DNA of 63,622 bases, filler included, from Folioceros fuciformis (taxonomy: Eukaryota), in assembly GCA_049999805.1 (NCBI GenBank). It is 9 parts of 9 records of this genome, joined end to end, with 100 filler letters (N's around TTAATTAATTAA, not from the genome) between each part and the next. Parts side by side here need not be neighbours in the genome. Positions count along the whole stretch, not along the records: positions 52,200 to 58,452 come from JBNGIO010004396.1; 8 more parts are not named here. One strand, written 5' to 3'. How positions within the stretch are numbered: the stretch's first letter is position 1; the number at the start of each line of letters is the position of its first letter. A program made the position numbers and the translations under genes. The notes under the pieces were generated by a model. It did not search any database. It saw only the letters and a program-made list of their open reading frames with translations, and had not been told where the DNA came from. Of this stretch, positions 5,360-63,622 are shown in pieces.

Positions 5360-5362
5360 CAT

Positions 5363-34199: not shown

Positions 34200-34448
34200 G
34201 TTTGTGGGCACCGAGAGAGGTGCAGCTGACCGCCGGACAGCGAGGCCTGTCCTACGCCTGATCGGAGCTGGAGGGGAGCCCTCGAATCCATCATCGAGTT
34301 CATCAAGTCCGACCCTCCATCCACAGCAGCAAGGAACCCCATCGCTCCTTCGTGGGAACGAAACCCAATGTCTCAACGACAGTGGGATAAGTGTGGCCAC
34401 TAAAGGTGGGACCCGTCGGCAATCAGTGCCCGGGGTTTTGCCTCCACA
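34194..34448 (+). repeat. Terminal fragment of the same LTR family as 39091-40341
   Basis: High similarity to 40087-40341, ending ...CTCCACA. Confidence 0.88.
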
Positions 34449-40967: not shown

Positions 40968-41456
40968 TTAGTTTTTCTGCGGAGGTGGCTCTCGTAAGTG
41001 GCATACGGGACATGCCACCTTAATAGGCTTGAGTGCATCCTCATTTTGTTGACAGTCTCTAACAGGGACTGATGATTGAATCACCGACGTCGCATCAAGA
41101 ATAATTTGCAGCCTTAGGAATACTCTCTCCATGATATGCTCTAAAACTGTGATATGATCATGCAACCCCTTAATCAAAGAAGGCAGTTGATCCGGTGAGC
41201 CTAAGCCCGCTCTACTAGCTGGGTGCCCCGATTGCTTACAGCATGAGCAAACAGGGTCTTCTTCTGAATGACTAAATGACTGCAAACAGGGTCTTCTTCT
41301 CGGTGTAGGTGCAGAAGAAAGGAGGTGCGGATTGTGGCAATCTCCGTACCTAAGGGTTCGAGAAAGCGTCTCTCCTATGCTTGACAGAAAGCTTGGGGAG
41401 ACATCCCTGCTCTGCCGATCTACACGGCGCCCTCTATCGCGGCCTCTGCGCGGCAT
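40968..41456 (-). CDS. Extra ORF upstream of gag (162 aa, Arg-rich N-terminus, Cys/His motifs)
   Basis: Open and collinear with 54429-54917, about 85% aa identity by eye, many silent differences. Confidence 0.65.
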   Translation of the reverse strand: MPRRGRDRGRRVDRQSRDVSPSFLSSIGETLSRTLRYGDCHNPHLLSSAPTPRRRPCLQSFSHSEEDPVCSCCKQSGHPASRAGLGSPDQLPSLIKGLHDHITVLEHIMERVFLRLQIILDATSVIQSSVPVRDCQQNEDALKPIKVACPVCHLREPPPQKN

Positions 41457-41823
41457 GGCGCACGCAATTCATGTGCATTAAGCCGCAGACAAAAAAGGTT
41501 GTGGGATGTCTAAAAGATGCACATACGCGCCAATCCGAGCAGCAGCTAGCCTGCAGATGTGGTCGCCAAGGCATGTAGACCGAGAATTGTGGGCAAGCAC
41601 ACACAAAATCTCATGTGCGCCCATGAATTTGCTGGCTTGCATACTGGGAACTGCAGGAGTTTGTTCGCGCAATACTGCAAAAGCCATTGCACGATTTTTG
41701 CAAGCACGCAATCACGACACCCCAAGAAATCTAGCCAAAGGCATTTGGTAGTGATTCCATATCATGCCATGCTTGATCTGAATGCCTGTGGATGCCACCA
41801 TCTGGAAACCCGCTCTGATACCA

Positions 41824-42028
41824 TAGAAAGTTTTAGATTGAACAAGCAAATTTGTATTACAGCTGAATGTTTTTAAAAACCACTCTTGACAGTTGGAAGC
41901 GGTTAGGTTACCCATTCACGGGATTTGTTCATATCTCGATATCTACATATATACAATAAACTAACTTATTCTATATAACTATTTCGATTTGCTACTGCTA
42001 GACTATACTAGCTTCAAGTATTTTTTTA
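41824..42028 (-). repeat. LTR (205 bp, TA...TA)
   Basis: Lies between PPT-like AAGTGGGAG and PBS TGGTATCAGAGC; homologous to 53178-53383 and 53896-54078. Confidence 0.8.
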
Positions 42029-44089
42029 CTCCCACTTAGGCTGGCTGGCAGCATGTCGAAAAAGGTTTAAGGTTTTTTTTTCTTCTTTCAATTCGAACCT
42101 GTTAATAGTTTGTGACTTGAGCTTGCTGGCGTCTGTGTGACTTGAACAACACCTAGACCAGTTGTGTGCCTCGCATGCTCACTCTTTCCCAATGCCTTTG
42201 TAAGCTGATCAGCAATATTGTTGACGGTGTTCACATAACTTAATTCAATCACTTTATCCTCGATTGCCTTGCGGATAAAGTGTTGTTTGACTTCTATGTG
42301 CCTCGTTCTGGAATGTGCGACAGGGTTTCTTGCAATCGCCATCGCTGACTGATTGTCACACCAAATGCAGGAAGGCTAACTCTGCTCATGTCCCAAGGTT
42401 TGCAAGAGAGATCTCATATGCATAACCTCTTGCGCTGCAGATGTGAGTGCTGAGTATTCAGCCTCAGTCGATGACAGAGCAACTACCGACTGCTTCTTCG
42501 AGGACCAGCTCACCAAGTTTCCGTCCAATTTCACACAGAAGGCAGAAGTAGATCTTCTCGTATCTCTGTCAGCTGCCCAGTCCGAATCCGAGTGACAAGT
42601 AAGCTCCAGCTGATTACTCGATTCCTTCTTATATTGCAAACCATAACCAGCTATGCCTTTAAGATAGCGCAGAATTCTCTTTGCTGCTGACCAGTGTTGT
42701 TGCCCCGGATTTGACAAGAACTGAGAAACGACTGAAGTAGCAAACGCAATATCTGGTCCCGTCCACGAACTCAACCACAGTAGACAGCCCACCAACATTC
42801 TGTACGGAACATGGGACATCTCCTGGGTTTCTACCTGGCTGCTAGGGCATTGTTCTTGTGTGAGTACTGCTCCAACTGCAACTGGAGTGGCTGCAGGATT
42901 TGCATCTTTCATATTAAACTTATCCAGAAGTCTGTCTACGTACTGTTTTTGGTGTAGCACAATTGTTCCAGATTGCTTATTGATCATAGCTTGTACTCCC
43001 AAGAAGAAAGTGCATTGCCCCATATCCATCATCTTAAACTCCAGCGACAGGATTCTTTTAACTTCATCGACTATATGCAAGGAGGACCCCATAATCAGGG
43101 TTTCATCTACATAAACAGCTAAGTATGTCACCTCATTACCTCGCCTGTAGATGTAGACACTTCCATCAGCTGCTGACTGCTTGAATCCATGCTTAAGCAA
43201 GAAATTATGCAATCGCCTGTTCCAGCACCTAGGCGCTTGTTTCAGCCCATACTATGTTTTCTTCAATCTACAGACATGTTTAGGGTGTTTCTTACTGACA
43301 AAACCTTCTGGTTGGCTCATGTAGACAGTCTCCTCTAGCACACCATTGAGAAAAGTGGTCTGTACATCCATTTGATGTACATTATATCCTTTGGCAGCTG
43401 CTATAGCTAACAGTGTCCTAACAGATGACGAGCGTACAACTGGGGAAAAAGTTTCATTATAATCAATGCCATCACGCTGGGAGAAACCACGCACCACTAG
43501 TCGAGCCTTGAAGCGTGCCGTGGTGCCATTAGGATTAAGTTTACGCTTGAAAACCCAGCGGTTCGAGATTGGTGTCCTACCAGGGGGTAAATCCTCCAAC
43601 ACCCATGTCTCATTTTCAATCAACGAGTTGAATTCTGAATTTATGGCTTCTAGCCATTTTTCTCTGTCCACTGACATGACTGCTTCTTGGTATGACTGCG
43701 GCTCCCCTAAGTCAGATGTTGCCATAAAAGCTTGGACTAACATGGCTGAATGTAGCTGGTGTCCCTCCATGGCATAAGGTACCTCATTCCACTGAAGAGG
43801 TGATGTGGTGTGTCTACGTGATGATCTTCGTGGCTGAGCTGCTATTGAATCCAAGGTTTGTTGAATGGTTTGGTCACTAGCACTACTCATGTGAGTTTGA
43901 CCATCTAAATCTGGAGCTCCCATTGACTCGTGATCACTGTCGTCATCTTTAGGGTCTGAAACCCCATGCTGATTTAGGGGTTTTCCAGATTCATCAACCA
44001 TTTCAGGATGTTGAGTCCTGCCATGGTTTGAATGGCTAGTTGACTGACCAACACTGCCGTATGTAACTTCATCTGTTTCNNNNNNNNNN

Positions 44090-47000
44090 GTATTCTGCTC
44101 TCATTTAACATGTGTAGTGAAGTAGTTAAAATGGACCTCTCGTCAAACTTCCTGAAACGGGCATGCGTAGCTCTGCCAGTACCCGGGTCATAGACCTTAT
44201 ACCCCTTAATGCCTTCTGTGTAACCAACAAAGAGCATTTGTCTTGCCTTGTAGTCAAGCTTCGTTCGAACCTCTTTGGGTACATGTACGTAGACTTTGCA
44301 CCCAAAGATTCTAAGATGTGATATCGTTCGCTTTCTGCCAGTCCAGCGCTCAAAAGGCGCGGAATTCATGAAGACTGCAGTAGGAAGTCGATTTAGAAGA
44401 TACGTGGCAGTATGTACCGCCTCAGCCCAATATCTCCTTGAAAATCTTGGCTGCTTCTTGCAGGTACCGATTTTTAGACGTTGCAAGCGGATTCTGACTA
44501 GAGGTATATGGAACCGTGATCTATCTGCAAATTCCAGACGACCTACAGTAAGTACTCTTGAAACTCACAGCCAGTAAACTCTCCACCTCCATCGCTTCGC
44601 AAAACCTTGACCTTATTTCCAGTTTGTCTTTGCGAATAGTTAACATAGTCAATAAATCTCTCCAAAGCCTCTAACTTGTGACGCAAAAAGTATGTAATTG
44701 TGAAACGAGTGTAATCGTCAACCAACACCATGAAATATAAGGCTCCTCCCAAAGATTTAACAGACATGGGCCCGCAAAGATCAATATGTACAACAGCTAG
44801 AGTTTCTGATGGTCTATTTTGTTCATGTGGCTTCTTAACATTCTGTTTAGGGAGCTTTGCATGCAGACAAGCCTCACAAAGCACATCTACATCTTGAATT
44901 GTCCAGGGCACGTCATCTTGGTACAGCTCCTTCCAACCATGTCTTTCATTTTGTTATAGTTTGGGTGCCCCAACCGACAGTGCCATAATAACTTAGTACT
45001 ATCTTCATCCAAACGTTTTGCTAAGTGCGCTCGAGCATGCAATTTGTCCAAGTCATTTTCAAAATGGGTGTGGTAGTCACGTCTATATAGATCAGAGTCA
45101 AGAGTTCCCAAGGCAACTACCATTTCTGTCTTGACATCAATAAGGTTGCACATGTTTTGATCAAAACTTACTTTCACGTTCCACTCCTGACATACATGTC
45201 TAACAGATCATAGATTCTTAACCATCTGAGGTACATGCAGGACCTGCTTCAAACATCTGGTGGAACCATCCTTCAGTCGAATCTTCACGGTTCCAACTCC
45301 ACCAATATTGAGCCCACTCTCATCGCCCAGCAGGACAAATTGTCCAGGTGAATACTCTTGATAATCATTAAAGCTACTTCTGTTATAGCATATATGGGCA
45401 GATGCCCCCGAGTCTATGAACCAAGAATGTTCATCAGACTTGGTGTGTGCAAGAAATACTGTCAAGATAATGTTCGAACTTGATGTCTTTGACTTAGTGA
45501 TGACATTTGCCTTTGGTGAGCTTGTCTTTCGTGGCTCGCTTGCACGTTTCTTACGACAGCCTGCCTCAATATGGCCCATGTATCTGCACCAGTTACATGT
45601 TAACTTCTTGTGATTAGGATTAGAGGGAAGACGTGTTCCCACAGCTGTTGACCTGCTTTGCCAACTTGTCTGATTTGGGAATCTACCTCCTCTGCCGCCT
45701 CTTACTCCTCTCCCGGCGTAGAGAATGCGGCCATGCGAGGTTTGTGCTTGTGGCCTGCCTAAGTTCATCAAAGCCTCCTCTTCTAGTAGTGCTGTGAACC
45801 TCCAAAGTTTGGGGTAGTGGTTTGTTTTGGTTGAAAAAGGGTTAATAGTGGTATGGTTTGGTTTTCTTTTTCTACTTATTTTCCCTAATTTTTCTTGATT
45901 TTCTGGTCATTTTTCCTATTTTTCTTTATGCTAATTAGGTTAATTGACCAGGAAATAGTTGGTTTGGTTATAAGAGTGGGTATAGGTTTGGTCCCAGACC
46001 TGGGAAAGTTTAGGTCCGGTACCGGGCCATAGGGTTATTAAAGCCCAATGTGCTTAGACTAATGTAATCAGTTTAATTAGGCTAATGTGATTAGTCTATT
46101 TAGGCTAATGTAATTAGTCTAAGATTAGTGTCTAATTAATTATCATTAGTTTAGATTAGCTTAAGCTAATTTTTAGGAAGCTTCCTGCAGAGCTTCTTGT
46201 GAAGCTTCCTTGGGAGCTTTTCTAGAGGGTATAAATACCCTCTTGAGCTCCCTTTTCAAGGGAGATGAGAGAGATGAGAAAGATGAGAGAGATGGGAGAG
46301 AGCTGTGAGAGACATTGTGACCTCTCTTTCTCCTCTTCTCCTCTCTTCCTCTCCTCTCCTCTCCTCTTCTCCTTCATCATGTGGCTCCCTTTCTGATCCT
46401 TCAAGGATCACAAGGTGTAATGACCAGGGTGAAGGGGTTTGCCCCTAGCTCTTGATTGTAAAGGATGTGTCTTTCTCTCGACCTGTCCACTCTTGTTCCC
46501 TGTTTGGACAAGTGCTGTAGGCCGGTTATGTTTCATGGCGTCTGGTAAGGTTGTGGGGAGGAGATATCCGAGGGGGTGTGGGGGGAGAGTGTGATCCCTT
46601 CTTTCTTTCCTTTGGGGTTAGTCTAGTGACTCTTGCCGGGTAGGAGGAGTCACTAGGGAAGTGTAGAAGGTAGTGGTGTCATTGTTAGTTGCTGGTGCTG
46701 GTGCTGGTGCTGGTGCTAGAGTGAGAGAGCGAGTGAAGTGAGTGAGGGAAGTCGCAGATCTGAGAGGTTAGGGTCGTTGTAGTGACTGGAGTGAGTTTGT
46801 GGGCACCGAGAGAGAGGCAGCTGACCGCTGGACAGCGAGGCCTGTCCTACGCCTGATCGGAGCTGGAGGGGAGCCCTCGAATCCATCATCGAGTCGATCA
46901 AGTCCGACCCTCCATCCATAGCAACAAGGAACCCCATCGCTCCTTTGTGGGAACGAAACCCAATGTCTCAACGACAGTGGGATAAGTGTGGCCATTAAAG

Positions 47001-50000
47001 GTGGAACCCATTGGCAATCAGTGCCCGGGGTTTTGTCTCCACAAGTGCCCCAATAGTATTTGACAGTGAGACTGCTGTCGCTGCTGCTATTCGCAGATTA
47101 CTGTTTTGTGTGCTCACAAAGACTCGATATCTGTCTGGCAGGGACATGAGGAGTGCAACTGATGCCTGGAGTTCAGAGACCTTCGTCCCTGCTGCTGCCA
47201 ACTTCTGCCTCAAATGCCTGAAGTACATCACATGCTCCTCAACTGTCTCAGATTCTTTCATCTTGCAATTCCAGAACAAGCGAGTGGCGTGGACCAACGA
47301 CGACTGGTTCGTCGTAGCAAACAACTGGGCCAAGGCTGTCCATGCCAGATGTGCTGTTGTGGCATCCTCTATGTGGTGTATCATACTATCATCAATAGTG
47401 AGTTCTAGGATGGCCCTGGCCTTCAAATCCATCTTATTCCATGCCCTAATGTCTGTTGTCGCTGCGTTTTGTCTTGGGTGAGGAGTAGAGCCATCCACCA
47501 CCTCCCACATGTCTTCTATCATCCGAAGGGTCTTAACCCTGTGTGCCCAGACATCAGAGTTGGACCCCGAGAATCGGTCCTTGTCTTTAAAATCAAGTTT
47601 CAATGAAGTCGTCATGGTTGGTTGAATTCTCTTGGCCTACCCCAGCGACGAGGTTGCCCAACCTCTCTCTTAGTTTTTCTGCGGAGGTGGCTCTCGTAAG
47701 TGGCATACGGGACATGCCACCTTAATAGGCTTGAGTGCATCCTCATTTTGTTGACAGTCTCTAACAGGGACTGATGATTGAATCACCGACGTCGCATCAA
47801 GAATAATTTGCAGCCTTAGGAATACTCTCTCCATGATATGCTCTAAAACTGTGATATGATCATGCAACCCCTTAATCAAAGAAGGCAGTTGATCCGGTGA
47901 GCCTAAGCCCGCTCTACTAGCTGGGTGCCCCGATTGCTTACAGCATGAGCAAACAGGGTCTTCTTCTGAATGACTAAATGACTGCAAACAGGGTCTTCTT
48001 CTCGGTGTAGGTGCAGAAGAAAGGAGGTGCGGATTGTGGCAATCTCCGTACCTAAGGGTTCGAGAAAGCGTCTCTCCTATGCTTGACAGAAAGCTTGGGG
48101 AGACATCCCTGCTCTGCCGATCTACACGGCGCCCTCTATCGCGGCCTCTGCGCGGCATGGCGCACGCAATTCATGTGCATTAAGCCGCAGACAAAAAAGG
48201 TTGTGGGATGTCTAAAAGATGCACATACGCGCCAATCCGAGCAGCAGCTAGCCTGCAGATGTGGTCGCCAAGGCATGTAGACCGAGAATTGTGGGCAAGC
48301 ACACACAAAATCTCATGTGCGCCCATGAATTTGCTGGCTTGCATACTGGGAACTGCAGGAGTTTGTTCGCGCAATACTGCAAAAGCCATTGCACGATTTT
48401 TGCAAGCACGCAATCACGACACCCCAAGAAATCTAGCCAAAGGCATTTGGTAGTGATTCCATATCATGCCATGCTTGATCTGAATGCCTGTGGATGCCAC
48501 CATCTGGAAACCCGCTCTGATACCATAGAAAGTTTTAGATTGAACAAGCAAATTTGTATTACAGCTGAATGTTTTTAAAAACCACTCTTGACAGTTGGAA
48601 GCGGTTAGGTTACCCATTCACGGGATTTGTTCATATCTCGATATCTACATATATACAATAAACTAACTTATTCTATATAACTATTTCGATTTGCTACTGC
48701 TAGACTATACTAGCTTCAAGTATTTTTTTACTCCCACTTAGGCTGGCTGGCAGCATGTCGAAAAAGGTTTAAGGTTTTTTTTTCTTCTTTCAATTCGAAC
48801 CTGTTAATAGTTTGTGACTTGAGCTTGCTGGCGTCTGTGTGACTTGAACAACACCTAGACCAGTTGTGTGCCTCGCATGCTCACTCTTTCCCAATGCCTT
48901 TGTAAGCTGATCAGCAATATTGTTGACGGTGTTCACATAACTTAATTCAATCACTTTATCCTCGATTGCCTTGCGGATAAAGTGTTGTTTGACTTCTATG
49001 TGCCTCGTTCTGGAATGTGCGACAGGGTTTCTTGCAATCGCCATCGCTGACTGATTGTCACACCAAATGCAGGAAGGCTAACTCTGCTCATGTCCCAAGG
49101 TTTGCAAGAGAGATCTCATATGCATAACCTCTTGCGCTGCAGATGTGAGTGCTGAGTATTCAGCCTCAGTCGATGACAGAGCAACTACCGACTGCTTCTT
49201 CGAGGACCAGCTCACCAAGTTTCCGTCCAATTTCACACAGAAGGCAGAAGTAGATCTTCTCGTATCTCTGTCAGCTGCCCAGTCCGAATCCGAGTGACAA
49301 GTAAGCTCCAGCTGATTACTCGATTCCTTCTTATATTGCAAACCATAACCAGCTATGCCTTTAAGATAGCGCAGAATTCTCTTTGCTGCTGACCAGTGTT
49401 GTTGCCCCGGATTTGACAAGAACTGAGAAACGACTGAAGTAGCAAACGCAATATCTGGTCCCGTCCACGAACTCAACCACAGTAGACAGCCCACCAACAT
49501 TCTGTACGGAACATGGGACATCTCCTGGGTTTCTACCTGGCTGCTAGGGCATTGTTCTTGTGTGAGTACTGCTCCAACTGCAACTGGAGTGGCTGCAGGA
49601 TTTGCATCTTTCATATTAAACTTATCCAGAAGTCTGTCTACGTACTGTTTTTGGTGTAGCACAATTGTTCCAGATTGCTTATTGATCATAGCTTGTACTC
49701 CCAAGAAGAAAGTGCATTGCCCCATATCCATCATCTTAAACTCCAGCGACAGGATTCTTTTAACTTCATCGACTATATGCAAGGAGGACCCCATAATCAG
49801 GGTTTCATCTACATAAACAGCTAAGTATGTCACCTCATTACCTCGCCTGTAGATGTAGACACTTCCATCAGCTGCTGACTGCTTGAATCCATGCTTAAGC
49901 AAGAAATTATGCAATCGCCTGTTCCAGCACCTAGGCGCTTGTTTCAGCCCATACTATGTTTTCTTCAATCTACAGACATGTTTAGGGTGTTTCTTACTGA

Positions 50001-50781
50001 CAAAACCTTCTGGTTGGCTCATGTAGACAGTCTCCTCTAGCACACCATTGAGAAAAGTGGTCTGTACATCCATTTGATGTACATTATATCCTTTGGCAGC
50101 TGCTATAGCTAACAGTGTCCTAACAGATGACGAGCGTACAACTGGGGAAAAAGTTTCATTATAATCAATGCCATCACGCTGGGAGAAACCACGCACCACT
50201 AGTCGAGCCTTGAAGCGTGCCGTGGTGCCATTAGGATTAAGTTTACGCTTGAAAACCCAGCGGTTCGAGATTGGTGTCCTACCAGGGGGTAAATCCTCCA
50301 ACACCCATGTCTCATTTTCAATCAACGAGTTGAATTCTGAATTTATGGCTTCTAGCCATTTTTCTCTGTCCACTGACATGACTGCTTCTTGGTATGACTG
50401 CGGCTCCCCTAAGTCAGATGTTGCCATAAAAGCTTGGACTAACATGGCTGAATGTAGCTGGTGTCCCTCCATGGCATAAGGTACCTCATTCCACTGAAGA
50501 GGTGATGTGGTGTGTCTACGTGATGATCTTCGTGGCTGAGCTGCTATTGAATCCAAGGTTTGTTGAATGGTTTGGTCACTAGCACTACTCATGTGAGTTT
50601 GACCATCTAAATCTGGAGCTCCCATTGACTCGTGATCACTGTCGTCATCTTTAGGGTCTGAAACCCCATGCTGATTTAGGGGTTTTCCAGATTCATCAAC
50701 CATTTCAGGATGTTGAGTCCTGCCATGGTTTGAATGGCTAGTTGACTGACCAACACTGCCGTATGTAACTTCATCTGTTTC
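44090..50781 (-). mobile_element. Second copy of 37388-44079 (assembly duplicate; solo LTR 45793-47043, extra ORF 47670-48158, LTR 48526-48730)
   Basis: Identical ORF set at offset 6702, separated by N10. Confidence 0.93.
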
Positions 50782-50881: not shown

Positions 50882-52099
50882 GCCGCTGCCACCTTGAGCA
50901 GCAGGAGCAGGCATCTTTGCCGATCCTTGCTGCTGAGAGGAGGCGGCTGTTCTAGTCGGCTTGCTCACAAACCGCCCTAGCTTGTCACGATGGCAGACAC
51001 AACGCTTTGCAGGAGGGGAGTCAGTAGCTGAAGACGTCATCTTGAGCTCAGAGATCCTACGCCCCAACGGCTTACAAATAAAGGACTTGAAGCGAGGAGG
51101 GATGCTATAAGGGTCGCGACACACCTGCTACCTAAGTTTGTGCACTAGTTTGCTACCCTAGTTTTATCACTAGAAATATCATTTATAGGTATGCATTCTA
51201 GTAGTGATAATCAAGTTGCAATTTGTTCATTATGATATGAAAGTCTAAAAACCGACTAATCTTGCACTAAATGGTAAACTTTAGTCAAGCAATGGTCAAC
51301 TAGCACCTAACATAATGTGTTCACATTCACAAACGATAAACTCTAGTCACGTATTGGCCAACTAGCACCCAACATGATGTGTTCACATTCACAAAGAATA
51401 AACTCTAATTGGGCATTAACTAACTAGCACCTAACATGATGTGATCAAATTCACAAATAAGAACTAACTTAAAAGGTCAAAACATNNNNNNNNNNGCCGC
51501 TGCCACCTTGAGCAGCAGGAGCAGGCATCTTTGCCGATCCTTGCTGCTGAGAGGAGGCGGCTGTTCTAGTCGGCTTGCTCACAAACCGCCCTAGCTTGTC
51601 ACGATGGCAGACACAACGCTTTGCAGGAGGGGAGTCAGTAGCTGAAGACGTCATCTTGAGCTCAGAGATCCTACGCCCCAACGGCTTACAAATAAAGGAC
51701 TTGAAGCGAGGAGGGATGCTATAAGGGTCGCGACACACCTGCTACCTAAGTTTGTGCACTAGTTTGCTACCCTAGTTTTATCACTAGAAATATCATTTAT
51801 AGGTATGCATTCTAGTAGTGATAATCAAGTTGCAATTTGTTCATTATGATATGAAAGTCTAAAAACCGACTAATCTTGCACTAAATGGTAAACTTTAGTC
51901 AAGCAATGGTCAACTAGCACCTAACATAATGTGTTCACATTCACAAACGATAAACTCTAGTCACGTATTGGCCAACTAGCACCCAACATGATGTGTTCAC
52001 ATTCACAAAGAATAAACTCTAATTGGGCATTAACTAACTAGCACCTAACATGATGTGATCAAATTCACAAATAAGAACTAACTTAAAAGGTCAAAACAT
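50882..52099. repeat. 604-bp unit written twice around N10; contains a ~62-bp tandem repeat (3 copies)
   Basis: 50882-51485 = 51496-52099; AACTAGCACCTAACATGATGTGTTCACATTCACAAA unit. Confidence 0.9.
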
Positions 52100-52199: not shown

Positions 52200-53125
52200 G
52201 CACTTTCTTCTTGGGAGTACAAGCTATCATCAATAAGCAGTCTGGAACAATTGTGCTACACCAAAAACATTACGTAGACAGACTTCTGGATAAGTTTAAC
52301 ATGAAAGATGCAAAACCCTCAGCTACTCCAGTTGCAGTGGGAGCAGTACTCACACAGGAACAATGCCCTACCAGCCAGATAGAAATCCAGGAGATGTCTC
52401 ATGTTCCCTACAGAATGTTGGTGGGCTGTCTACTGTGGTTGAGTTCGTGGACGCGACCAGATATTGCATTTGCTACTTCAGTTGTTTCTCAATTCTTGTC
52501 AAATCCGGGGCAACAGCACTGGTCTGCAGCAAAGAGAATTCTACGATATCTTAAAGGCACAGCTGGTTATGGCTTGCAGTATAAGAAGGAATCGAGTAGT
52601 CTGCTTGAGCTTACTTGTCATTCGGATTCAGACTGGGCAGCTGACAGAGATACGAGAAGATCTGTTTCTGCCTTCTGTGTGAAATTGGATGGAAACTTGG
52701 TGAGCTGGTCCTCGAAAAAACAGTCGGTGGTTGCTCTGTCGTCGACTGAGGCTGAATATTCAGCACTAACATCTGCAGCGCAAGAGATTATGCATATGAG
52801 ATCTTTCCTGCAGACATTGGGACATGAGCAGAGTCAACCTACTTGCATTTGGTGCGGCAATCAGTCAGCAATGGCGATTGCAAGAAACCCTATCGCACAT
52901 TCCAGAACGAGGCACATAGAAGTCAAACAACATTTTATCCGCAAGGCAGTCGAGGACAAAGTTATTGAATTAAATTATGTAAACACCATTGACAATATTG
53001 CTGATAAGCTTACAAAGGCATTGGGAAAGAGTGTACATGTGAGGCACACAACTGGTCTAGGTGTCGTTCAAGTCACACAGACGCCAGCAAGTTCAAGTCA
53101 CGAACTATCAATAGGTTCGAATTGA
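52200..53125 (+). CDS. pol: Copia RT C-terminus/RNase H (partial)
   Basis: TRPDIAF, RYLKGT, SDSDWA, SSTEAEY, RHIEV, ADKLTKAL; same family as scaffold D. Confidence 0.93.
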
Positions 53126-53177
53126 AAGAAGAAAAGAAAAAGTTTTTTGATATGTTGCCAGCAAGCCTAAGTGGGAG

Positions 53178-53383
53178 TAAAGAAAGTACTTGAAATTAGT
53201 ATAGTCTAGCAGTAGCATATCGAAATAGTTAAATAGAATAAGCTAGTTTATTATATATATGCAAATATCGAGATATGAACAAATCCCCTAACTGAATAAC
53301 CTAACCGCTCTCAACTGACAAGAGTGTTCATAAAGACATTCAGCCGTAATGCAATTCGTACTTGTTCGTTCTAAATGTTTCTA
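53178..53383 (+). repeat. LTR (206 bp, TA...TA) followed by PBS 53384-53395
   Basis: Preceded by AAGTGGGAG, followed by TGGTATCAGAGC and leader sequence. Confidence 0.8.
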
Positions 53384-53895
53384 TGGTATCAGAGCAGGTT
53401 TCCAGGTGGTGGTGTCCGCAGGCATTTTGATTGAGTGCGGCATGATAAGGAATCACTATCAGATGGCTGTGGCTAGATTTTTCGGGCTGTCGTGATTTCG
53501 CACTTGCAAAATCAGTGCGATGGCTTCTGCAATATTGTGCGAACAAACTNNNNNNNNNNNNNNNNNNNNNNNNNNNNNNNNNNNNNNNNNNNNNNNNNNN
53601 NNNNNNNNNNNNNNNNNNNNNNNNNNNNNNNNNNNNNNNNNNNNNNNNNAAGCAAACAAGGCCTTAGGCACATATTTCCAACCTCGCCGCACATTTGCAA
53701 GCAAACTTAAGCGCAACTCTTGTGCCTAAGCAAACTAACCTTTTCTTCCAACGGTCTATTTAAAAATTACTTTGTGCGCAAGGACACACGAACTTATGAC
53801 CATCTTTTAAATGTAACTGAGGTAACATTATGTATATGTTCAATATTGATTTCTTGCCTTCTTCTTTGACCTAGTGTCTTTTTGTTGCTTTTACG

Positions 53896-54078
53896 TAAAA
53901 AAGTACTTTAAGTTAGTTTAGTCTAGCAATAGCATATCGAAATAGTCAAATAGAATAAGTTAATTTATTGTATATATGTAGATATCGAGGTAACCTAACT
54001 GCTTTCAACTGTCAAGAGTGCTTCTTAAAGAGATTCAGCTGTAATACAAATCCTCTTGTTCGATCTAAAAACTTTCTA
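53896..54078 (+). repeat. 5' LTR (183 bp, TA...TA) followed by PBS 54079-54090
   Basis: Similarity to the other LTRs starts at TAAAAAAG after unrelated flank; PBS TGGTATTAGAGC. Confidence 0.8.
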
Positions 54079-54428
54079 TGGTATTAGAGCAGGTTTCTAG
54101 ATGGTGGCATCCATAGGCATTCACATCGAGCGCGGCATAATATAGAATCACTACCAAATGCGTCCGGCTAGATTTTTTGGGGTGTCGTGATTGCGCGCTT
54201 GCAAAATCCGTGCAATGGCTTATACAGTATTGTGCGAACAAACTCCTGCAGTTTCCAGTATGCAGGCCAGCAAATTCATGGGCGCACATGCGTTTCTGTG
54301 TGTGCGTACCCACGATTCTCTGTCGGCATGCCTGGGCAAGCACATCTGCAGGCTAGCTGCTACACAGATAGGCGCGTATGTGCAGCTTTTTCTTGTCTGA
54401 GGCTTTATGCACGTGAATTGTGTGCGCC

Positions 54429-54917
54429 ATGCCGCACAGAGGCCGCGATAGAGGGCGCCGTGTAGGTCGGCAGAGCAGAGATTTCTCACTAAGCTTTCTG
54501 GCAAGCGTAGGAGAGACTCTTTCTCGAACCCTTAGGTACGGAGATTGCCGCAATCGGCACCTCCCCTCTTCTACACCTACACCGAGAAGAAGACCATGTT
54601 TGCAGTCATTCAATCATTCAAAAGAAGACCTTGTTTGCTCATACTGTAAGCAATCGGGGCGCCCAGCTAGTAGAGCGGGCTTAGCCTCACCCGATCAATT
54701 GCCCTCTTTGATTAAGGGGTTGCATGATCATATCACGGTTCTGGAGCATATCCTCGAGAGAGTATTTGTAAGGCTGCAAATTATTCCTGATACGACGTCG
54801 GTGATTCAATCATCAGCCCCTGTTAGAGACTGTCAACAAAATGAGGACGCACTCAATTCTATTAAGGTGGCATGTCCAGTATGCCACTTAAGAGAGCCAC
54901 TTCCGCAGAAAAACTGA
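54429..54917 (+). CDS. Extra ORF upstream of gag (162 aa from the ATG)
   Basis: Homolog of 40968-41456 with the same start and stop positions. Confidence 0.65.
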   Translation: MPHRGRDRGRRVGRQSRDFSLSFLASVGETLSRTLRYGDCRNRHLPSSTPTPRRRPCLQSFNHSKEDLVCSYCKQSGRPASRAGLASPDQLPSLIKGLHDHITVLEHILERVFVRLQIIPDTTSVIQSSAPVRDCQQNEDALNSIKVACPVCHLREPLPQKN

Positions 54918-55057
54918 GAGAGGCTGGGCAGCCTCGTCGCTGGGGTAGGCCTAGGTCGTATTCTCCACCCCCATCAAAATCACGAGACTGGTTTTCGGGC
55001 AGTCTGCCAACTTGGCTCACGCAATCAATTGCATATCAACGAAGAATTCAACCAAGC

Positions 55058-58000
55058 ATGACGACTTCAATGAAACTCGATTTTAAAGACAAGGACTGAT
55101 TCTCAGGGTCCAACTATGATGTCTGGGCACACAGGGTTAAGACCCTTCTGATGATAGAAGACCTGTGGGAGGTGGTGGATGGTTCTGCTCCCCACCCGGG
55201 ACAAAACGCAATGTCAGCAGACATTACGGCATGGAATAAGAAGGACTTGAAGGCCAGAGCCATCCTGGAATTCACAATTGACAACAGCATGATACACCAT
55301 ATAGAGGACGCCACAACAGCGCATCTAGCATGGACAGCCTTGGCCCAGATGTTTGCTACGACGAATCAGTCGTCTTTGGTCCACGCCACTCGTTCGTTCT
55401 GGAATTGTAAAATGAAAGAATCTGAGACAGTAGAGGAGCATGTGATGCACTTCAGGCATTTGAGGCAGAAGTTGGCAGCAACAGGGACGAAGGTCTTTGA
55501 ACTCCAGGCATCTGTTGCACTCCTCATGTCCCTGCCAGACAGATTCCGAGTTTTTGTGAGCACGCAGAATAGTAACCTGCGAACAGCAGCAGCGACAGCA
55601 GTCTCACTGTCAAATACTATCGGAGCACTACTAGAAGAGGAGGCTTCGATGAATTCAGGCAGGCCGCAAGCACAAACCTCGCATGGCCGTATACTCTACG
55701 CCGGGAGAGGAGCAAGAGGAGGCAGAGGAGGCAGATTCCCACATCGAACAAGTTGGCAAAGTAGGTCAACAGTTGTGGGAACACGTCCTCCATCCAATCC
55801 TAATCACAAGAAATTAACCTGTAACTGGTGCAGAAACATGGGACATATTGAGGCAGATTGTCGTAAGAAACGTTCAGGTGAGCCACGAAAGACAGGCTCA
55901 CCAGAAGCAAATGTGATCACTAAGTCAAAGGCATCAAGTTCGAATACTATCTTGACAGTTTTTCTTGCACACACCAAGTCTGATGAACATTCTTGGTACA
56001 TAGACTCCGGGGCATCAGCTCATATATGCTATAACAGAAATAGCTTTAATGACTATCAAGCGTATTCACCTGGACAATTTGTCCTGCTGGGCGATGAGAG
56101 TGGACTGAATATTGCTGGAGTTGGAACCGTGAAGATTCGATTGAATGATGGTTCTACCAGATGTTTGAAACAGGTCCTGCATGTACCTCAGATGGTTAAG
56201 AATCTACTATCTGTTAGACATGTATGTCAGGAGTGGAATGTGAAAGTAAGCTTTGATCAAAACATGTCCAACCTTACTGATGTCAAGACAGAAATGGTAG
56301 TTGCCTTAGGAGCTCTTGACTCGGATCTATACAGACTTGACTGCCACACCCACTTTGGAAATGACTTGGACAAACAGCATGCTCGAGCGCACTTAGCAAA
56401 ACATTTGGATGAAGATAGTACTCAGCTACTATGGCACTGTCGGTTGGGGCACCCAAATTATAACAAAATGAAAGATGGTTGGAAAGGATCTGTACCAAGA
56501 TGACGTGCCCTGGACAATTCAAGATGTAGATGTGCTCTGTGAGGCTTGTCTGTACGCAAAACTCCCTAAACAGAATGTGAAGAAACCACATGAACAAAAT
56601 AGAGCTTCGGAAACCCTAGCCGTTGTACATACTGATCTTTGCGGGCCCATGTCTGTTAAGTCTCTGGGAGGAGCTCTATATTTCATGGTGCTGGTGGACG
56701 ATTATAGTCGTTTCACAATTACATATTTTCTGCGTCACAAGTCAGAGGCTCTGGAGAGATTTGTTGACTATGTTAACTATTCGCAAAGACAAATTGGAAA
56801 TAAGGTCAAGGTTTTGCGAAGCGATGGAGGTGGAGAGTTTACTGGTCGTGAATTTCAAGAGTATTGTAGGTCGTCTGGAATTGGCAGACAGATCACGGTT
56901 TCGTATACTTCCAGTCAGAATCCACTTGTAGAGTCTAAAAATCAGTACCTGCAAGAAACAGCCAAGGCCATGCTATATCAGTCTGGGCTGTCAAGGAGGT
57001 ATTGGGCTGAGGCGGTACACACAGCCACTTATCTTCTAAATCGACTTCCTACTGCAGCCTTCATGAACTCCACGCCTTTCGAGCGCTGGACTGGCAGAAA
57101 ACCAACGATATCACATCTTAGAATTTTTGGGTGCAAAGTTTACATACATGTACCTAAAGAGATTCGAACAAAGCTCGACTACAAGGCAAAACAGATGCTC
57201 TTCGTTGGATACACAGAAGGCGTTAAGGGATATAAGGTCTATGACCCAGGCACAGGCAGAGCTACGCATGCTCGTTTCGGGAAGTTTGACGAGAGGTCCA
57301 TATTAACTACATCACTACACAAGTTAAATGAGAACAGAATACCTGCTAGTGATCTTGAAGAAGCAGAAACATGTGAAGTTACCTACGGCAGTGTTGGCCA
57401 GGCTTCGCAAGTGCCGTCTAACCATTCGAACTATGGCAGGACTCAACATACTGAAACTGTTGGTGAACCAGGAAAATCTCTGAATCTGCAGGAGGTTTTG
57501 GACCCTGTAGATGAGGACAGTGATCACGAGTCAATGGGAGCTCATGATTCAGATGGTCACACTCTCATGAGCAGTGCTAGTGACCAAAGCATTCAACAAA
57601 CCATGGATTCAGTAGCAGCTCAGCCACGAAGATCGTCACGTAGACACACCACATCACCTCTTGATTGGAATGAGGTACCTTATGCCATGGAGGGACACCA
57701 GCTGCATTCAGCCATGTTAGTCCAAGCTCTTATCGCAACATCTGACTTAGGGGAGCCACAGTCATATCAAGAAGCAGTTATGTCAGTGGACAAAGAAAAA
57801 TGGCTCGAAGCCATAAATTCAGAATTCAATTCGTTGATTGAAAATGAGACATGGGTGTTGGAGGAGTTACCACCTGGTAGGACACCAATCTCTAACCGCT
57901 GGGTTTTCAAGCGTAAACTGAATCCCGATGGCACCACAGCACGGTTCAAGGCTCGATTAGTGGTGCGTGGTTTCTCCCAGCGTGAAGGCATTGATTATAA

Positions 58001-58452
58001 CGAAACTTTTTCCCCAGTTGTGCGCTCATCTTCTGTTTGGACACTGTTAGCCATAGCAGCTGTCAAAGGATATAATGTACATCAAATGGATGTACAGACT
58101 GCCTTTCTCAATGGTGTGCTGGAAGAGACTGTCTATATGAGCCAACCAGAAGGCTTCGTCAGTAAGAAACACCCTAAGCGTGTCTGTAGATTGAAGAAAA
58201 CTCAGTATGGGCTGAAACAAGCGCCCAGGGCCTGGAACAGGCGTTTGCATAATTTCTTGCTTAAGCACGGTTTCAAGCAGTCGGCAGCCGATGGAAGCGT
58301 ATACATCTACAGGCAAGGAAATGAGGTGACATACTTAGCTGTTTATGTAGATGAAACCCTCATTATAGGGTCTTCAATGCATATAGTCGATGAAGTTAAA
58401 AGAAATTTGTCGCTGGAGTTTAAGATGACGGATGTAGGGCAGTGCACTTTCT
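55058..58452 (+). pseudogene. pol: Copia gag-PR-IN-RT with one nonsense codon and one frameshift
   Basis: LWEVVDG, CNWCRNMGHIEADC, WYIDSGASAH, WHCRLGH, HTD/RSDGG, FKARLV, QMDV, YGLKQ, YVDE; TGA at 55097-55099, frameshift near 56475. Confidence 0.93.
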
Positions 58453-58552: not shown

Positions 58553-59265
58553 TTCTAATATACTATCTAGTATAGAGTTTCTATCTAGTTTAGATATAGG
58601 TAGTATTATAATAGTCTAGTAATTTTTCTTATTCTCTTTCTCTATTTAGAAAAGAATATTAAGTATTTAGTTAGAGATATTATAGCCTTCTCTACTTATT
58701 ATACTACTAATATAATATATTACCTTATTCTTAAACTTATAGTTTCTAGTAAAGTACTTAGGTTTACTATAGTTATAGTATGTCTTTTTATTATCTTTAT
58801 CTCTTTTTTTTATAGATTTCTTCTATTTCTTATCTTTCTAATTAATATTATCTAAGTATATTACTTTAAGTTAGCTAAAAATATAATATTCTATAGTATA
58901 AGCTCTTTAGAAGCCTTAAGAGTAGGCGTATCTTTTTTTCTTTATATTAGCTAGATTATCTTATTAATAAAAGCTTTATTCTTTAAGCTTTAATTTATAT
59001 AGCTTATTATTAATATAGATACTTTTATTAAGAAGTTTCTTAAATATATTAAGACTTAATCTACTATATATAAGTTTAGTATATACCTGTCTCTTATACA
59101 CATCTTAGAAAATCCTCTTAAAGGCGTTATTATTCTAATTTATTCTAGTAGAAATTTATTAGAATTAAGTAGTATACTTAGTAACTAATTTAGTCTATTA
59201 TAAGTACTAAATTTAGTATTTAGTCTAAGCTTCTTTCTTCTAGACTCTAAAAATAGTTCTAAAGT

Positions 59266-59318
<53 letters not shown>

Positions 59319-60181
59319 ATATTATTATTTATATACTTAGTAAAAAAAGAGGTTACTTAATCTTAGACTTTTTCTCTTATATAGATAGTAACTAAGATAA
59401 CTTAATTATTAGTATTAATATTAGAGTTAAGGTAGAAGTAGATATTCTACTAGATAATNNNNNNNNNNTTCTAATATACTATCTAGTATAGAGTTTCTAT
59501 CTAGTTTAGATATAGGTAGTATTATAATAGTCTAGTAATTTTTCTTATTCTCTTTCTCTATTTAGAAAAGAATATTAAGTATTTAGTTAGAGATATTATA
59601 GCCTTCTCTACTTATTATACTACTAATATAATATATTACCTTATTCTTAAACTTATAGTTTCTAGTAAAGTACTTAGGTTTACTATAGTTATAGTATGTC
59701 TTTTTATTATCTTTATCTCTTTTTTTTATAGATTTCTTCTATTTCTTATCTTTCTAATTAATATTATCTAAGTATATTACTTTAAGTTAGCTAAAAATAT
59801 AATATTCTATAGTATAAGCTCTTTAGAAGCCTTAAGAGTAGGCGTATCTTTTTTTCTTTATATTAGCTAGATTATCTTATTAATAAAAGCTTTATTCTTT
59901 AAGCTTTAATTTATATAGCTTATTATTAATATAGATACTTTTATTAAGAAGTTTCTTAAATATATTAAGACTTAATCTACTATATATAAGTTTAGTATAT
60001 ACCTGTCTCTTATACACATCTTAGAAAATCCTCTTAAAGGCGTTATTATTCTAATTTATTCTAGTAGAAATTTATTAGAATTAAGTAGTATACTTAGTAA
60101 CTAATTTAGTCTATTATAAGTACTAAATTTAGTATTTAGTCTAAGCTTCTTTCTTCTAGACTCTAAAAATAGTTCTAAAGT

Positions 60182-60234
<53 letters not shown>

Positions 60235-60374
60235 ATATTATTATTTATATACTTAGTAAAAAAAGAGGTTACTTAATCTTAGACTTTTTCTCTTATATAG
60301 ATAGTAACTAAGATAACTTAATTATTAGTATTAATATTAGAGTTAAGGTAGAAGTAGATATTCTACTAGATAAT
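58553..60374. other. AT-rich, CpA/TpG-depleted 906-bp unit written twice (RIP-like, probable fungal contaminant)
   Basis: 58553-59458 = 59469-60374; TA-rich, almost no CA/TG outside the adapter; long poly-A. Confidence 0.75.
59087..59105 (+). other. Tn5 mosaic end / Nextera adapter (second copy 60003-60021)
   Basis: Exact CTGTCTCTTATACACATCT. Confidence 0.97.
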
Positions 60375-60474: not shown

Positions 60475-61830
60475 CACAGGTCTTAGACAGTTTTTCTAGT
60501 GACTGTAAATGCACGCAGCCCACATGCTGCACTATGTTTATAATGTTTGATCTTTGGTAGTCCTTTTGTTAGGAGATCAGCTGTGTTATCTTCAGTGTTC
60601 ACATATTCAACTTTAACCAGTCCTCTCTTAGCCACATCTCTTATATAGTGATGGTATAATTCGATGTGCTTTGTTCGAGCATGAAACCGGGGGTTGGACA
60701 CAAGGGCAATAGCAGACATGTTGTCACATTTTAGCTGAGTTGATCCAACTTGTGTTTGTTGTACAAAATCAAGGAATTGGCACTCCCACTCAGCTTCTTT
60801 ACATGCATCTGTTAAGGCCTTGTATTCAGCCTTAGTGGAGGACAAAGCTAACAAAGTTTGCTTTTTGCAGCTCCCGCTGACAACACCTGAAGCCAAGATA
60901 AAGCAATATGCTGAAAGGCTCCTCCTAGTGTCAGAATCAGCTGCCCAATCAGCATAAGCAAAAGAGGTCAGTATAAATTTATTGTGTCCACTAGCTGTAT
61001 AGTGAAGTCCCCAATTTAGTGTGCCTCTTAAATACCGATAAATTCTCTTAACTGCTGACTAGTGAGTTCTCCCAGGTGCCTTCAAGAACTGGGAAACAAG
61101 GCTAACAGCATAGGAAATATCTGGACGGGTCCAGTTAGCAAGGAAAANNNNNNNNNNCACAGGTCTTAGACAGTTTTTCTAGTGACTGTAAATGCACGCA
61201 GCCCACATGCTGCACTATGTTTATAATGTTTGATCTTTGGTAGTCCTTTTGTTAGGAGATCAGCTGTGTTATCTTCAGTGTTCACATATTCAACTTTAAC
61301 CAGTCCTCTCTTAGCCACATCTCTTATATAGTGATGGTATAATTCGATGTGCTTTGTTCGAGCATGAAACCGGGGGTTGGACACAAGGGCAATAGCAGAC
61401 ATGTTGTCACATTTTAGCTGAGTTGATCCAACTTGTGTTTGTTGTACAAAATCAAGGAATTGGCACTCCCACTCAGCTTCTTTACATGCATCTGTTAAGG
61501 CCTTGTATTCAGCCTTAGTGGAGGACAAAGCTAACAAAGTTTGCTTTTTGCAGCTCCCGCTGACAACACCTGAAGCCAAGATAAAGCAATATGCTGAAAG
61601 GCTCCTCCTAGTGTCAGAATCAGCTGCCCAATCAGCATAAGCAAAAGAGGTCAGTATAAATTTATTGTGTCCACTAGCTGTATAGTGAAGTCCCCAATTT
61701 AGTGTGCCTCTTAAATACCGATAAATTCTCTTAACTGCTGACTAGTGAGTTCTCCCAGGTGCCTTCAAGAACTGGGAAACAAGGCTAACAGCATAGGAAA
61801 TATCTGGACGGGTCCAGTTAGCAAGGAAAA
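60475..61830 (-). pseudogene. pol: Copia RT/RNase H fragment, 673-bp unit written twice around N10
   Basis: TRPDI, ADWAAD, LSSTKAEY, KHIELYHH, ADLLTK; 60475-61147 = 61158-61830. Confidence 0.9.
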
Positions 61831-61930: not shown

Positions 61931-63622
61931 ATAGAGTTTTTATCTAAGTAAAATATTAGTAAAATATTTAATTATATTTATTAGAATTATTAATATTACC
62001 TTTTAAAGTTCTATAATTATTAATAATAGCTTTTATAGTAAAATCTAACTTAGTAGATTTTACTACTAAACTATTATTAATAGTAGTAGAAATAAAGATA
62101 GCTTTAGTAAGTATTTTATTTAGCTAATTAATAATAATTAATATTAGTATTTTTTAAATTAGAATATAATTTTACTTACTAATAATACTAATAAAAAATA
62201 AATATAGTATAGATAGTAAATAGATAACTTAGTAGAGTAAATAGTAAGTTTTCTAATTTAAAAAATAATTATTATAGATAGAGAAACTACTTATATATAT
62301 AAATTTAAAATTAAGAAAGTTTATTAAAATATCTAATAAAGTTTATTAAACTATCTAATAAACCTTATTATTATTTAATAAAGCTTATTATTATTTAATA
62401 AAGCTTATTATTATTTAATAAAGCTTATTATTATTTAATAAAGCTTATTTATATTAATCTATTATTTAATTTATAAATTTAATATATTAAATTCTCGTAT
62501 TTTTAATCTACTAATAGTTAGTTTATTAATTTAATATATTAAATTTACTAAATAAGTAATAAGTAATAACGCTTATTTTTTTAAAAATATATTAGTTTCT
62601 TAGTTAATTTTTTAAATTATCTATATAAAGAGTAGTATTTCTTTTTCTTTCTTTTCTTAAAATATAGTATAACTATTATTTAAATATTACTATATTATAT
62701 ATTTTACTATTTTTATTTATATATTATATTATATATATTATATTATATATATTATATTATATATATTATATNNNNNNNNNNATAGAGTTTTTATCTAAGT
62801 AAAATATTAGTAAAATATTTAATTATATTTATTAGAATTATTAATATTACCTTTTAAAGTTCTATAATTATTAATAATAGCTTTTATAGTAAAATCTAAC
62901 TTAGTAGATTTTACTACTAAACTATTATTAATAGTAGTAGAAATAAAGATAGCTTTAGTAAGTATTTTATTTAGCTAATTAATAATAATTAATATTAGTA
63001 TTTTTTAAATTAGAATATAATTTTACTTACTAATAATACTAATAAAAAATAAATATAGTATAGATAGTAAATAGATAACTTAGTAGAGTAAATAGTAAGT
63101 TTTCTAATTTAAAAAATAATTATTATAGATAGAGAAACTACTTATATATATAAATTTAAAATTAAGAAAGTTTATTAAAATATCTAATAAAGTTTATTAA
63201 ACTATCTAATAAACCTTATTATTATTTAATAAAGCTTATTATTATTTAATAAAGCTTATTATTATTTAATAAAGCTTATTATTATTTAATAAAGCTTATT
63301 TATATTAATCTATTATTTAATTTATAAATTTAATATATTAAATTCTCGTATTTTTAATCTACTAATAGTTAGTTTATTAATTTAATATATTAAATTTACT
63401 AAATAAGTAATAAGTAATAACGCTTATTTTTTTAAAAATATATTAGTTTCTTAGTTAATTTTTTAAATTATCTATATAAAGAGTAGTATTTCTTTTTCTT
63501 TCTTTTCTTAAAATATAGTATAACTATTATTTAAATATTACTATATTATATATTTTACTATTTTTATTTATATATTATATTATATATATTATATTATATA
63601 TATTATATTATATATATTATAT
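61931..63622. other. Extremely AT-rich, CpA/TpG-depleted 841-bp unit written twice (RIP-like), with a 20-bp tandem repeat
   Basis: 61931-62771 = 62782-63622; ATAAAGCTTATTATTATTTA repeats at ~62358-62450. Confidence 0.7.

What the first reader, a model, noticed from the sequence alone, without database searches (positions are those of the whole stretch)
54429..55099. Copia family with a conserved extra ORF upstream of gag and a candidate -1 frameshift signal
Seen: two diverged copies (54429-54917 and 40968-41456) keep a 162-aa ORF between PBS and gag open with the same start and stop, although gag/pol are damaged in both. Many differences are silent (ACG/ACA, CTG/TTA, TTT/TTC, CCC/CCG). The protein has an Arg-rich start, a CxxCxxxG(H/R) knuckle-like motif, a Leu/Ile heptad segment and CPVCH. 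It ends at G_AAA_AAC-stop (54908-54917), followed 5 nt later by the hairpin GAGGCTG-GG-CAGCCTC (54920-54935). The other copy reads GAGGTTG-GG-CAACCTC, a compensatory C-G to T-A change. In scaffold F the -1 frame is open from there into the gag ATG (55058). Knowledge: copia elements usually have one gag-pol ORF, and 5' extra ORFs are best known from Ogre gypsy elements. Inference: an ORF0-Gag fusion made by programmed -1 frameshifting. Caveats: the heptamer is imperfect, the stem is short, and indels break the frame link in copy D.
Basis: partly seen in the sequence, partly recalled or inferred. Interest (0 to 1): 0.72.

Follow-up and report, generated by a model that had tools for sequence, protein, structure and literature searches.

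The report
Copia retrotransposon with extra upstream gene
A plant jumping-gene family carries a small extra gene of unknown kind that overlaps the start of its main gene and hides that start in an RNA hairpin; the main gene has its own start, so the proposed frameshift fusion is probably wrong.

Summary
ORF0 is real. It occurs in five diverged subfamilies of one Ty1/copia family (120-162 aa, 23-66% identity between subfamilies), holds its frame to gag in 11 of 12 copies, and has omega 0.50 (gag core 0.08). No homolog was found. The -1 frameshift reading is not supported as the main route. Gag does not start at 55058: it has its own conserved AUG at 54881, inside ORF0, 34 nt before the ORF0 stop. 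Codons upstream of the proposed slip site are conserved in the gag frame, not the ORF0 frame. New here: a 7-11 bp hairpin buries the gag AUG in 13 of 16 ORF0-bearing copies and 0 of 10 sister copies without ORF0. Best reading: a separate accessory protein whose translation gates Gag-Pol initiation, most likely by termination-reinitiation. This mechanism is inferred; a separate Gag-Pol mRNA or shunting remains open. No expression data. In the REXdb survey, 5' extra ORFs mark no copia lineage, but its 250-codon cut-off would miss this one.

The parts
53896..54078 (+). 5' LTR of copy F, 183 nt, TA...TA ends, TATA-like box
   Evidence: matches LTRs at 53178-53383 and 41824-42028
54079..54090 (+). 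primer binding site, tRNA-Met type (assignment recalled)
54091..54428 (+). leader, 9 upstream AUGs; length 208-544 nt across copies, not kept in frame
54429..54917 (+). ORF0, 162 aa, basic N-terminus, AUG in strong context (GCC ATG)
54699..54815 (+). best conserved part of ORF0, residues 91-129, predicted helix with a heptad repeat; I102, E106, R115, Q117 invariant
54863..54865 (+). gag-frame stop 5 codons before the gag AUG; present 5-6 codons upstream in 16 of 16 readable ORF0-bearing copies
54865..54889 (+). 10-bp hairpin whose 3' arm holds the gag AUG
   Evidence: z -3.2; 2 of 200 shuffles as stable
54881..55057 (+). true gag start (AUG 54881) and 59-codon Arg/Ser/Pro-rich N-terminal extension; first 37 nt overlap ORF0
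   Evidence: omega 0.31-0.33
55058..56503 (+). Gag core, zinc knuckle, protease, pre-integrase; premature stop at 55097-55099 in this copy
56475..58452 (+). integrase then reverse transcriptase (copia order), in a second frame in this copy, cut by the contig end
52200..53383 (+). RT end, RNase H-like ORF (52301-53125; label recalled from motifs), PPT (53169-53177) and LTR (53178-53383) of the same family
40968..41456 (-). ORF0 of copy D; gag AUG at 41002-41004; stop-to-core linker 54 nt against 140 nt in F
47670..48158 (-). identical duplicate of ORF0 of copy D

Best explanation
A Ty1/copia LTR-retrotransposon family with a bicistronic 5' end. SHOWN by sequence comparison: ORF0 is a protein-coding accessory gene under moderate purifying selection; Gag(-Pol) is a separate ORF with its own AUG lying 34 nt before the ORF0 stop; the 37-nt overlap, the ORF0 stop and a hairpin over the gag AUG are kept together (about 0.85 for this anatomy). 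INFERRED: on the full-length RNA ribosomes start at the strong ORF0 AUG, melt the hairpin while translating through it, terminate, and a fraction moves back and reinitiates at the gag AUG, so Gag-Pol output is low and tied to ORF0 translation (about 0.45). INFERRED, weaker: ORF0p is a small basic RNA-binding regulator with a coiled-coil-like helix, acting on the element's own RNA.
For: ORF0 omega 0.50 in 12 copies with the overlap removed, 2dlnL 43.6 against omega 1; the other five frames of the same alignment give 0.70-1.92 with 53-112 stops each. Five start-to-stop lengths (486, 465, 435, 396, 360 nt), all multiples of 3; 11 of 12 copies in the same frame; 7 of 12 without internal stop. ORF0 stop at the same place in 15 of 16 copies, as TGA or TAA, while the gag residue after it varies R/K/N/S. 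Gag AUG in 28 copies; extension omega 0.31-0.33. AUG hairpin z at or below -2.2 in 13 of 16 ORF0-bearing copies and 0 of 10 ORF0-less copies; subfamily E keeps it with other pairs; a 7-bp stem shared by 4 of 5 subfamilies arose in 1 of 3000 column shuffles. Plain scanning to gag is unlikely: 4-13 AUGs in the leader and 4-8 more inside ORF0. Reviews describe reinitiation at an AUG upstream of the stop of a long overlapping ORF, also without TURBS motif 1 (PMC10275272; PMC5972666).
Against: No transcript, ribosome or protein evidence for ORF0. The 34-nt distance exceeds the documented range: within 20 nt for TURBS, falling beyond about 30 nt, up to 29 nt in pneumoviruses. UGGGA is present in 1 of 16 copies. 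The hairpin could refold behind a terminating ribosome and block restart. It was found after the fact, the fold window was chosen around it, its stem is nearly invariant in A-D (no covariation there) and both arms are coding. The ORF0-less sister group reaches the same AUG past 21-28 upstream AUGs, so the family may have a route to Gag that needs no ORF0. The codon alignment was protein-guided, which lowers omega in the guided frame; two close pairs show omega 2.8 and 0.95. All copies come from one fragmented genome.
Confidence: 0.5

Rival explanations
1. ORF0 and Gag-Pol are made from different mRNAs: full-length RNA gives ORF0p, an internally started or spliced RNA gives Gag-Pol; the hairpin silences the gag AUG on the genomic RNA or serves packaging.
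For: Gag AUG has a purine at -3 in all ORF0-bearing copies. The ORF0-less sister group has a GTAAG donor-like site just after the PBS in 7 of 8 copies. Partial splicing is known in Ogre (PMC6317226), and MDG1 elements make a short sORF1 transcript (10.1101/2025.03.14.642691).
Against: No shared donor in ORF0-bearing leaders; YAG just before the gag AUG in only 8 of 16 copies and no AG shared by 12 of 16. It does not explain the fixed 37-nt overlap and the retained stop.
Confidence: 0.22
2. Gag is reached by shunting, internal entry or leaky scanning, and ORF0 acts as a repressive overlapping uORF whose protein has its own job.
For: The sister group must bypass 21-28 AUGs. Two of 8 leaders fold better than shuffles (z -8.6 and -2.6, 40 shuffles). 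Overlapping uORFs usually repress the main ORF (PMC10275272).
Against: 6 of 8 leaders are not unusually structured; no Rfam match at E up to 1; 4-8 AUGs inside ORF0.
Confidence: 0.15
3. One reading: -1 frameshifting at G_AAA_AAC makes an ORF0-Gag fusion, as the main route (about 0.07) or as a side product in subfamilies A and D (about 0.15).
For: gag is in the -1 frame in 11 of 12 copies; G_AAA_AAY in 7 of 17; post-stop hairpin in the same register in A, D and partly E. Imperfect X_XX is documented for several viruses (PMC5009743).
Against: Gag-frame selection upstream of the slip site and an own AUG; 0 of 17 strict heptamers; no tandem slip site in C or E; hairpin broken in B and C, z 0.03 in the window copy; a 4-bp register shared by 3 of 5 subfamilies appears in 69% of 2000 column shuffles. 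A shift further upstream would meet the conserved gag-frame stop.
Confidence: 0.1
4. ORF0 is a chance open frame in leader DNA, kept by shared descent.
For: No homolog or domain anywhere; 5 of 12 copies broken; omega only 0.50.
Against: Frame, start and stop kept at 23-45% identity with saturated silent sites; indels in multiples of 3, unlike the leaders.
Confidence: 0.03

Closest known systems
Plant Ty1/copia elements with tRNA-Met PBS and one GAG-PROT-INT-RT-RH ORF (REXdb, PMC6317226)
   Same: Domain order and Pfam families, PBS type, size near 5-6 kb, short LTRs.
   Different: Carries a 5' sense ORF in five subfamilies. REXdb Additional file 5 lists extra ORFs only for SIRE (3', 74%) and a few percent of Bianca (5, 2) and Ikeros (4, 6; column assignment uncertain in the text dump), with a 250-codon cut-off. 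RT is at most 53% identical to the 120 listed hits; lineage not assigned.
Drosophila MDG1/412 group sORF1 and sORF2 (Ty3/gypsy; 10.1101/2025.03.14.642691)
   Same: Small selected ORFs of 60-130 aa between 5' LTR and gag, shown to be translated.
   Different: Gypsy, not copia; no sequence likeness tested or found. ORF0p lacks a clear membrane segment (best 19-residue hydropathy 1.0-1.65), so it is not sORF2/FAST-like.
Ogre, TatII and Tekay eORF-5'F (Ty3/gypsy)
   Same: Extra sense ORF upstream of gag in 21-33% of elements.
   Different: Those are 250 codons or longer, in gypsy elements; Ogre eORFs often carry the plant mobile domain; ORF0 has no Pfam hit.
Termination-reinitiation in SART1 (non-LTR), pneumoviruses and caliciviruses
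   Same: Long upstream ORF overlapping the next AUG out of frame, with RNA structure near the junction.
   Different: Overlap here is longer (AUG 34 nt before the stop), no TURBS motif 1, and the AUG lies inside the stem; untested.
AtRE1 and other non-TGCA copia elements (10.1101/137141)
   Same: TA...TA LTR ends and short LTRs.
   Different: Some subfamilies here end in TT before the PBS; no relationship to AtRE1 was tested.

Membership tests
Ty1/copia LTR retrotransposon | Gag, protease, integrase before RT (RVT_2) | tested here: met
   PF14223, PF22936, PF13976, PF00665, PF25597, PF07727 in that order
Ty1/copia LTR retrotransposon | LTR, PBS and PPT | tested here: met
Ty1/copia LTR retrotransposon | paired LTRs with target-site duplication on one contig | tested here: inconclusive
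   contigs are cut or circularly permuted; no TSD was looked for
named REXdb copia lineage (Ale, Ivana, Lyco, Gymco etc.) | RT/INT/RH phylogeny against REXdb references | not testable with these tools
   reference file too large to read
Bianca / Osser / Bryco | half-tRNA PBS | tested here: not met
   PBS is the full tRNA-Met type (match to tRNA-Met recalled)
SIRE | extra ORF 3' of pol | tested here: not met
   RNase H end lies about 50 nt before the PPT; the extra ORF is 5'
programmed -1 frameshift cassette | conserved X_XXY_YYZ heptamer | tested here: not met
   0 of 17 strict; relaxed in A, B, D only
programmed -1 frameshift cassette | conserved stimulatory structure 5-9 nt downstream | tested here: inconclusive
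   6/6 pairs in 4 of 13 copies; no excess stability in A
programmed -1 frameshift cassette | downstream frame lacks its own start and is unconstrained before the slip site | tested here: not met
   own AUG; gag-frame constraint upstream
TURBS-type termination-reinitiation | UGGGA motif 1 upstream of the stop | tested here: not met
   1 of 16 copies
TURBS-type termination-reinitiation | stop and restart within about 20 nt | tested here: not met
   34 nt
termination-reinitiation in general | downstream ORF output depends on upstream translation and stop position | not testable with these tools
   needs a reporter
MDG1 sORF2 / FAST-like protein | membrane segment followed by a polybasic tract | tested here: not met
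   basic tract is N-terminal; no strongly hydrophobic 19-mer

The most novel reading that the evidence does not exclude
An LTR retrotransposon that makes Gag-Pol by coupled termination-reinitiation: its start codon is locked in a hairpin that only ribosomes translating a lineage-specific upstream gene can open. The upstream product may be a Rev-like regulator (Arg-rich N-terminus, helix with an export-signal-like spacing of hydrophobic residues; motif recalled, pattern match is unspecific) that routes the genomic RNA between translation and packaging.
Probability: 0.3. Interest if true: 0.8.

Novelty: new variant of a known kind. Interest (0 to 1): 0.56.

Why it matters
Copia elements are treated as one-ORF elements, and surveys with a 250-codon cut-off would miss genes of this size. 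A selected orphan gene upstream of gag, with a fixed overlap and a start-masking hairpin that appear only together, gives a short natural cassette in five sequence versions plus an ORF0-less sister group as control. That makes the open question of how 5' extra ORFs and Gag-Pol share one RNA testable with simple reporters. It also corrects the annotation: Gag is about 60 residues longer than its Pfam-visible core.

Tried and rejected
Homolog searches for ORF0, all empty: Pfam at E 0.1; 70 word-sharing candidates, none at E 0.01; profile of 6 copies against 1.84 billion representatives, 0 at E 0.001; ESM Atlas, no usable hit; viral contigs, 143 pattern matches, none confirmed. Gag extension among longer proteins: 11 candidates, none. 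Gag in metagenome contigs: 123 pattern matches, none confirmed. Fold: mean pLDDT 53, pTM 0.22; BFVD 0 matches at E 0.001, which means little with this model. Dimer job on residues 86-132: no answer, score 0.02, no evidence either way. Rfam: none. Expression: no RNA holder listed; run X3 is only guessed to be RNA, its 3 laid contigs cover 54881 onward and none covers ORF0 proper, which shows nothing about expression; that one contig begins exactly at the gag AUG was not used. A TGATG/TAATG stop-start in the sister group first looked like classic coupling, but no long ORF lies upstream of it and an ORF0 profile finds nothing in those 11 copies (E 14 or worse). Gain or loss of ORF0: the Gag tree (24 rows) holds the family as one clade (94/97) but leaves the ORF0-bearing copies unresolved, one side of a branch in 20% of bootstraps. 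Zinc-binding role for the Cys motifs rejected as family-wide. Earlier scan notes: nothing. Rows left out: the exact duplicate of copy D; C5400 and C5091 (deleted across the region); C2052 and four partial copies from the omega fit.

Full report
Setting. The window is a chain of contigs from an 87-Mb, 7240-contig assembly. A dirigent-like gene (PF03018) points to a plant; the host was not identified. The element is Ty1/copia by domain order, with a 183-206-nt LTR ending TA...TA, a tRNA-Met-type PBS and a PPT. Its RT region is at most 53% identical to the 120 listed database hits, so the family has no close described relative among them.

The observation. Both 162-aa ORFs are there. Between the two alone, dN/dS is 0.44 against 0.17 for gag, which is suggestive only. 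Searches of the own genome gave 30, 18, 29 and 15 matches (lower bounds). From these I set up 32 distinct loci. ORF0 occurs in five subfamilies, A-E, at 23-66% identity between subfamilies. Twelve copies hold both the ORF0 start and the gag start: 11 keep the same frame, 7 have no internal stop, and the five start-to-stop lengths in those 11 are all multiples of three, whereas leaders vary freely from 208 to 544 nt. A codon model on 12 copies without the overlap gives omega 0.50 (2dlnL 43.6 against 1); the other five frames give 0.70-1.92. The alignment was protein-guided, which favours the guided frame, and two close pairs show no constraint, as dead copies would. ORF0 is a coding gene under moderate constraint.

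Where Gag starts. The frame is open to 54866 and holds MPLKRATSAEKL from 54881. This start was found in 28 copies: 17 ORF0-bearing and 11 of a sister group with no detectable ORF0. The motif search needed an ATG and so cannot count losses; the five loci without it are cut or deleted there, and the one initial miss had the ATG. The extension has omega 0.31-0.33, the Gag core 0.08. A gag-frame stop lies 5-6 codons upstream in 16 of 16 readable ORF0-bearing copies.

The frameshift model. If ribosomes entered gag only at 54908-54914, the nine codons before it would be read in the ORF0 frame alone. They are conserved in the gag frame instead: 24 silent and 26 replacing differences against 4 and 50 (ten pairs of five representatives, not independent). 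No copy of 17 has a strict heptamer; the A-run is gag E-K-L and is absent in subfamily C and unslippable at the P site in E. The hairpin is 6 bp, z 0.03. It is fully paired in 4 of 13 copies, one of them subfamily D with two double changes, partly in E, and broken in B and C. Searching all registers, such sharing is common (69% of shuffles), though for a register named beforehand it is less so. A side product by frameshifting in A and D stays possible; a structure downstream of the stop also fits SART1-type reinitiation (PMC5972666).

A new element. A stem of 7-11 bp places the gag AUG in its 3' arm (54865-54889; z -3.2). It scores z -2.2 or lower in 13 of 16 ORF0-bearing copies, the three others having lesions in the stem, and in 0 of 10 ORF0-less copies; subfamily E forms it with different pairs. 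One of 3000 column shuffles gave a 7-bp stem in four of five subfamilies. It was found after the fact and both arms are coding. The ORF0 stop is kept at the same place in 15 of 16 copies as TGA or TAA while the following gag residue changes.

Mechanism. Shown: two ORFs, fixed 37-nt overlap, masked AUG, many upstream AUGs. Inferred: translation of ORF0 opens the stem and terminating ribosomes restart 34 nt back. This is longer than documented cases (within 20 nt for TURBS, up to 29 nt in pneumoviruses) and motif 1 is absent, so I give it about even odds. A separate Gag-Pol mRNA is the main rival; splice signals are not shared among ORF0-bearing copies, but the sister group has a donor-like site. 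There is no expression evidence.

The protein. Basic (pI 8.4-9.8), Arg-rich start, two predicted helices (21-41 and 91-129), the second with heptad spacing and the invariant I102, E106, R115, Q117. No homolog or fold match. The Cys motifs are not family-wide. An RNA-binding regulator is my best guess, from composition only.

Known systems. REXdb (PMC6317226: passages, section 10 and Additional file 5) lists 5' extra ORFs as common in Tekay, TatII and Ogre, and in copia only in a few percent of Bianca and Ikeros, at 250 codons or more; Additional file 1 could not be read and may hold relevant elements. A screen of 121 plant genomes found no domain gain in copia (PMC9289625, passages). A review of additional ORFs stresses 3' ones (PMC7264820, part 1 of 3). 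The nearest working analogue is MDG1 sORF1/sORF2 (10.1101/2025.03.14.642691, passages, supplements not seen). PMC10275272 and PMC5009743 were seen as passages, PMC5972666 as passages and section 15, 10.1101/137141 as passages, PMC3485330 (rice gypsy ORF0) as listing only. Searches listed no copia element with a small ORF overlapping the gag start; the library lacks most subscription papers, and I opened only the papers named here.

Verdict. Real gene, wrong mechanism, and a more coherent junction than the one proposed. New variant of a known kind; interest 0.56.

Noticed in passing
window 37388-50781; also 50882-52099, 58553-60374, 60475-61830, 61931-63622: Contigs made of two 100% identical halves split by 10 N; probably an assembly artefact, so copy D's duplicate is not an independent copy.
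   Followed up: partly
window 52200-58452 and 37388-44079: Both element-bearing contigs look circularly permuted, with RNase H-PPT-LTR running straight into PBS and leader. The LTR plus leader at 53178-53549 is 371 of 372 identical to that of C6261. Either a tandem array sharing one LTR or assembly through identical LTRs of a young element.
   Followed up: partly
L062, L063, L071, L029, L024, L025, L027, L066 (sister group without ORF0): Leaders of 838-1159 nt with 21-28 AUGs, a GTAAG donor-like site right after the PBS in 7 of 8 copies, and a short out-of-frame ORF starting 7 nt before the gag AUG and ending 29 nt after it in most copies.
   Followed up: partly
window 55530-55677 and 55798-56069: Contigs of run X3 (RNA only by guess) skip these parts with CT..AC ends, i.e. 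GT..AG on the minus strand: possibly a spliced antisense transcript over gag. One contig each.
   Followed up: no
window 4598-9100: A second, unrelated copia family with a 1245-aa open pol; the stop at 5357-5359 looked like a gag-pol readthrough site but 4 of 4 other copies covering it read through, so it is private damage.
   Followed up: yes
window 39092-40341: About 1.25 kb of other sequence interrupts gag of copy D; part of it matches 34194-34448 at 95%.
   Followed up: no
L015 (C4767), PBS to ORF0: The 208-nt leader of subfamily D folds far better than shuffles (z -8.6, 40 shuffles).
   Followed up: no
window 23090-23689 and 18375-18698: Host genes: a dirigent-like ORF and a signal-peptide ORF that looks like a lipocalin start (label recalled, not searched).
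   Followed up: no
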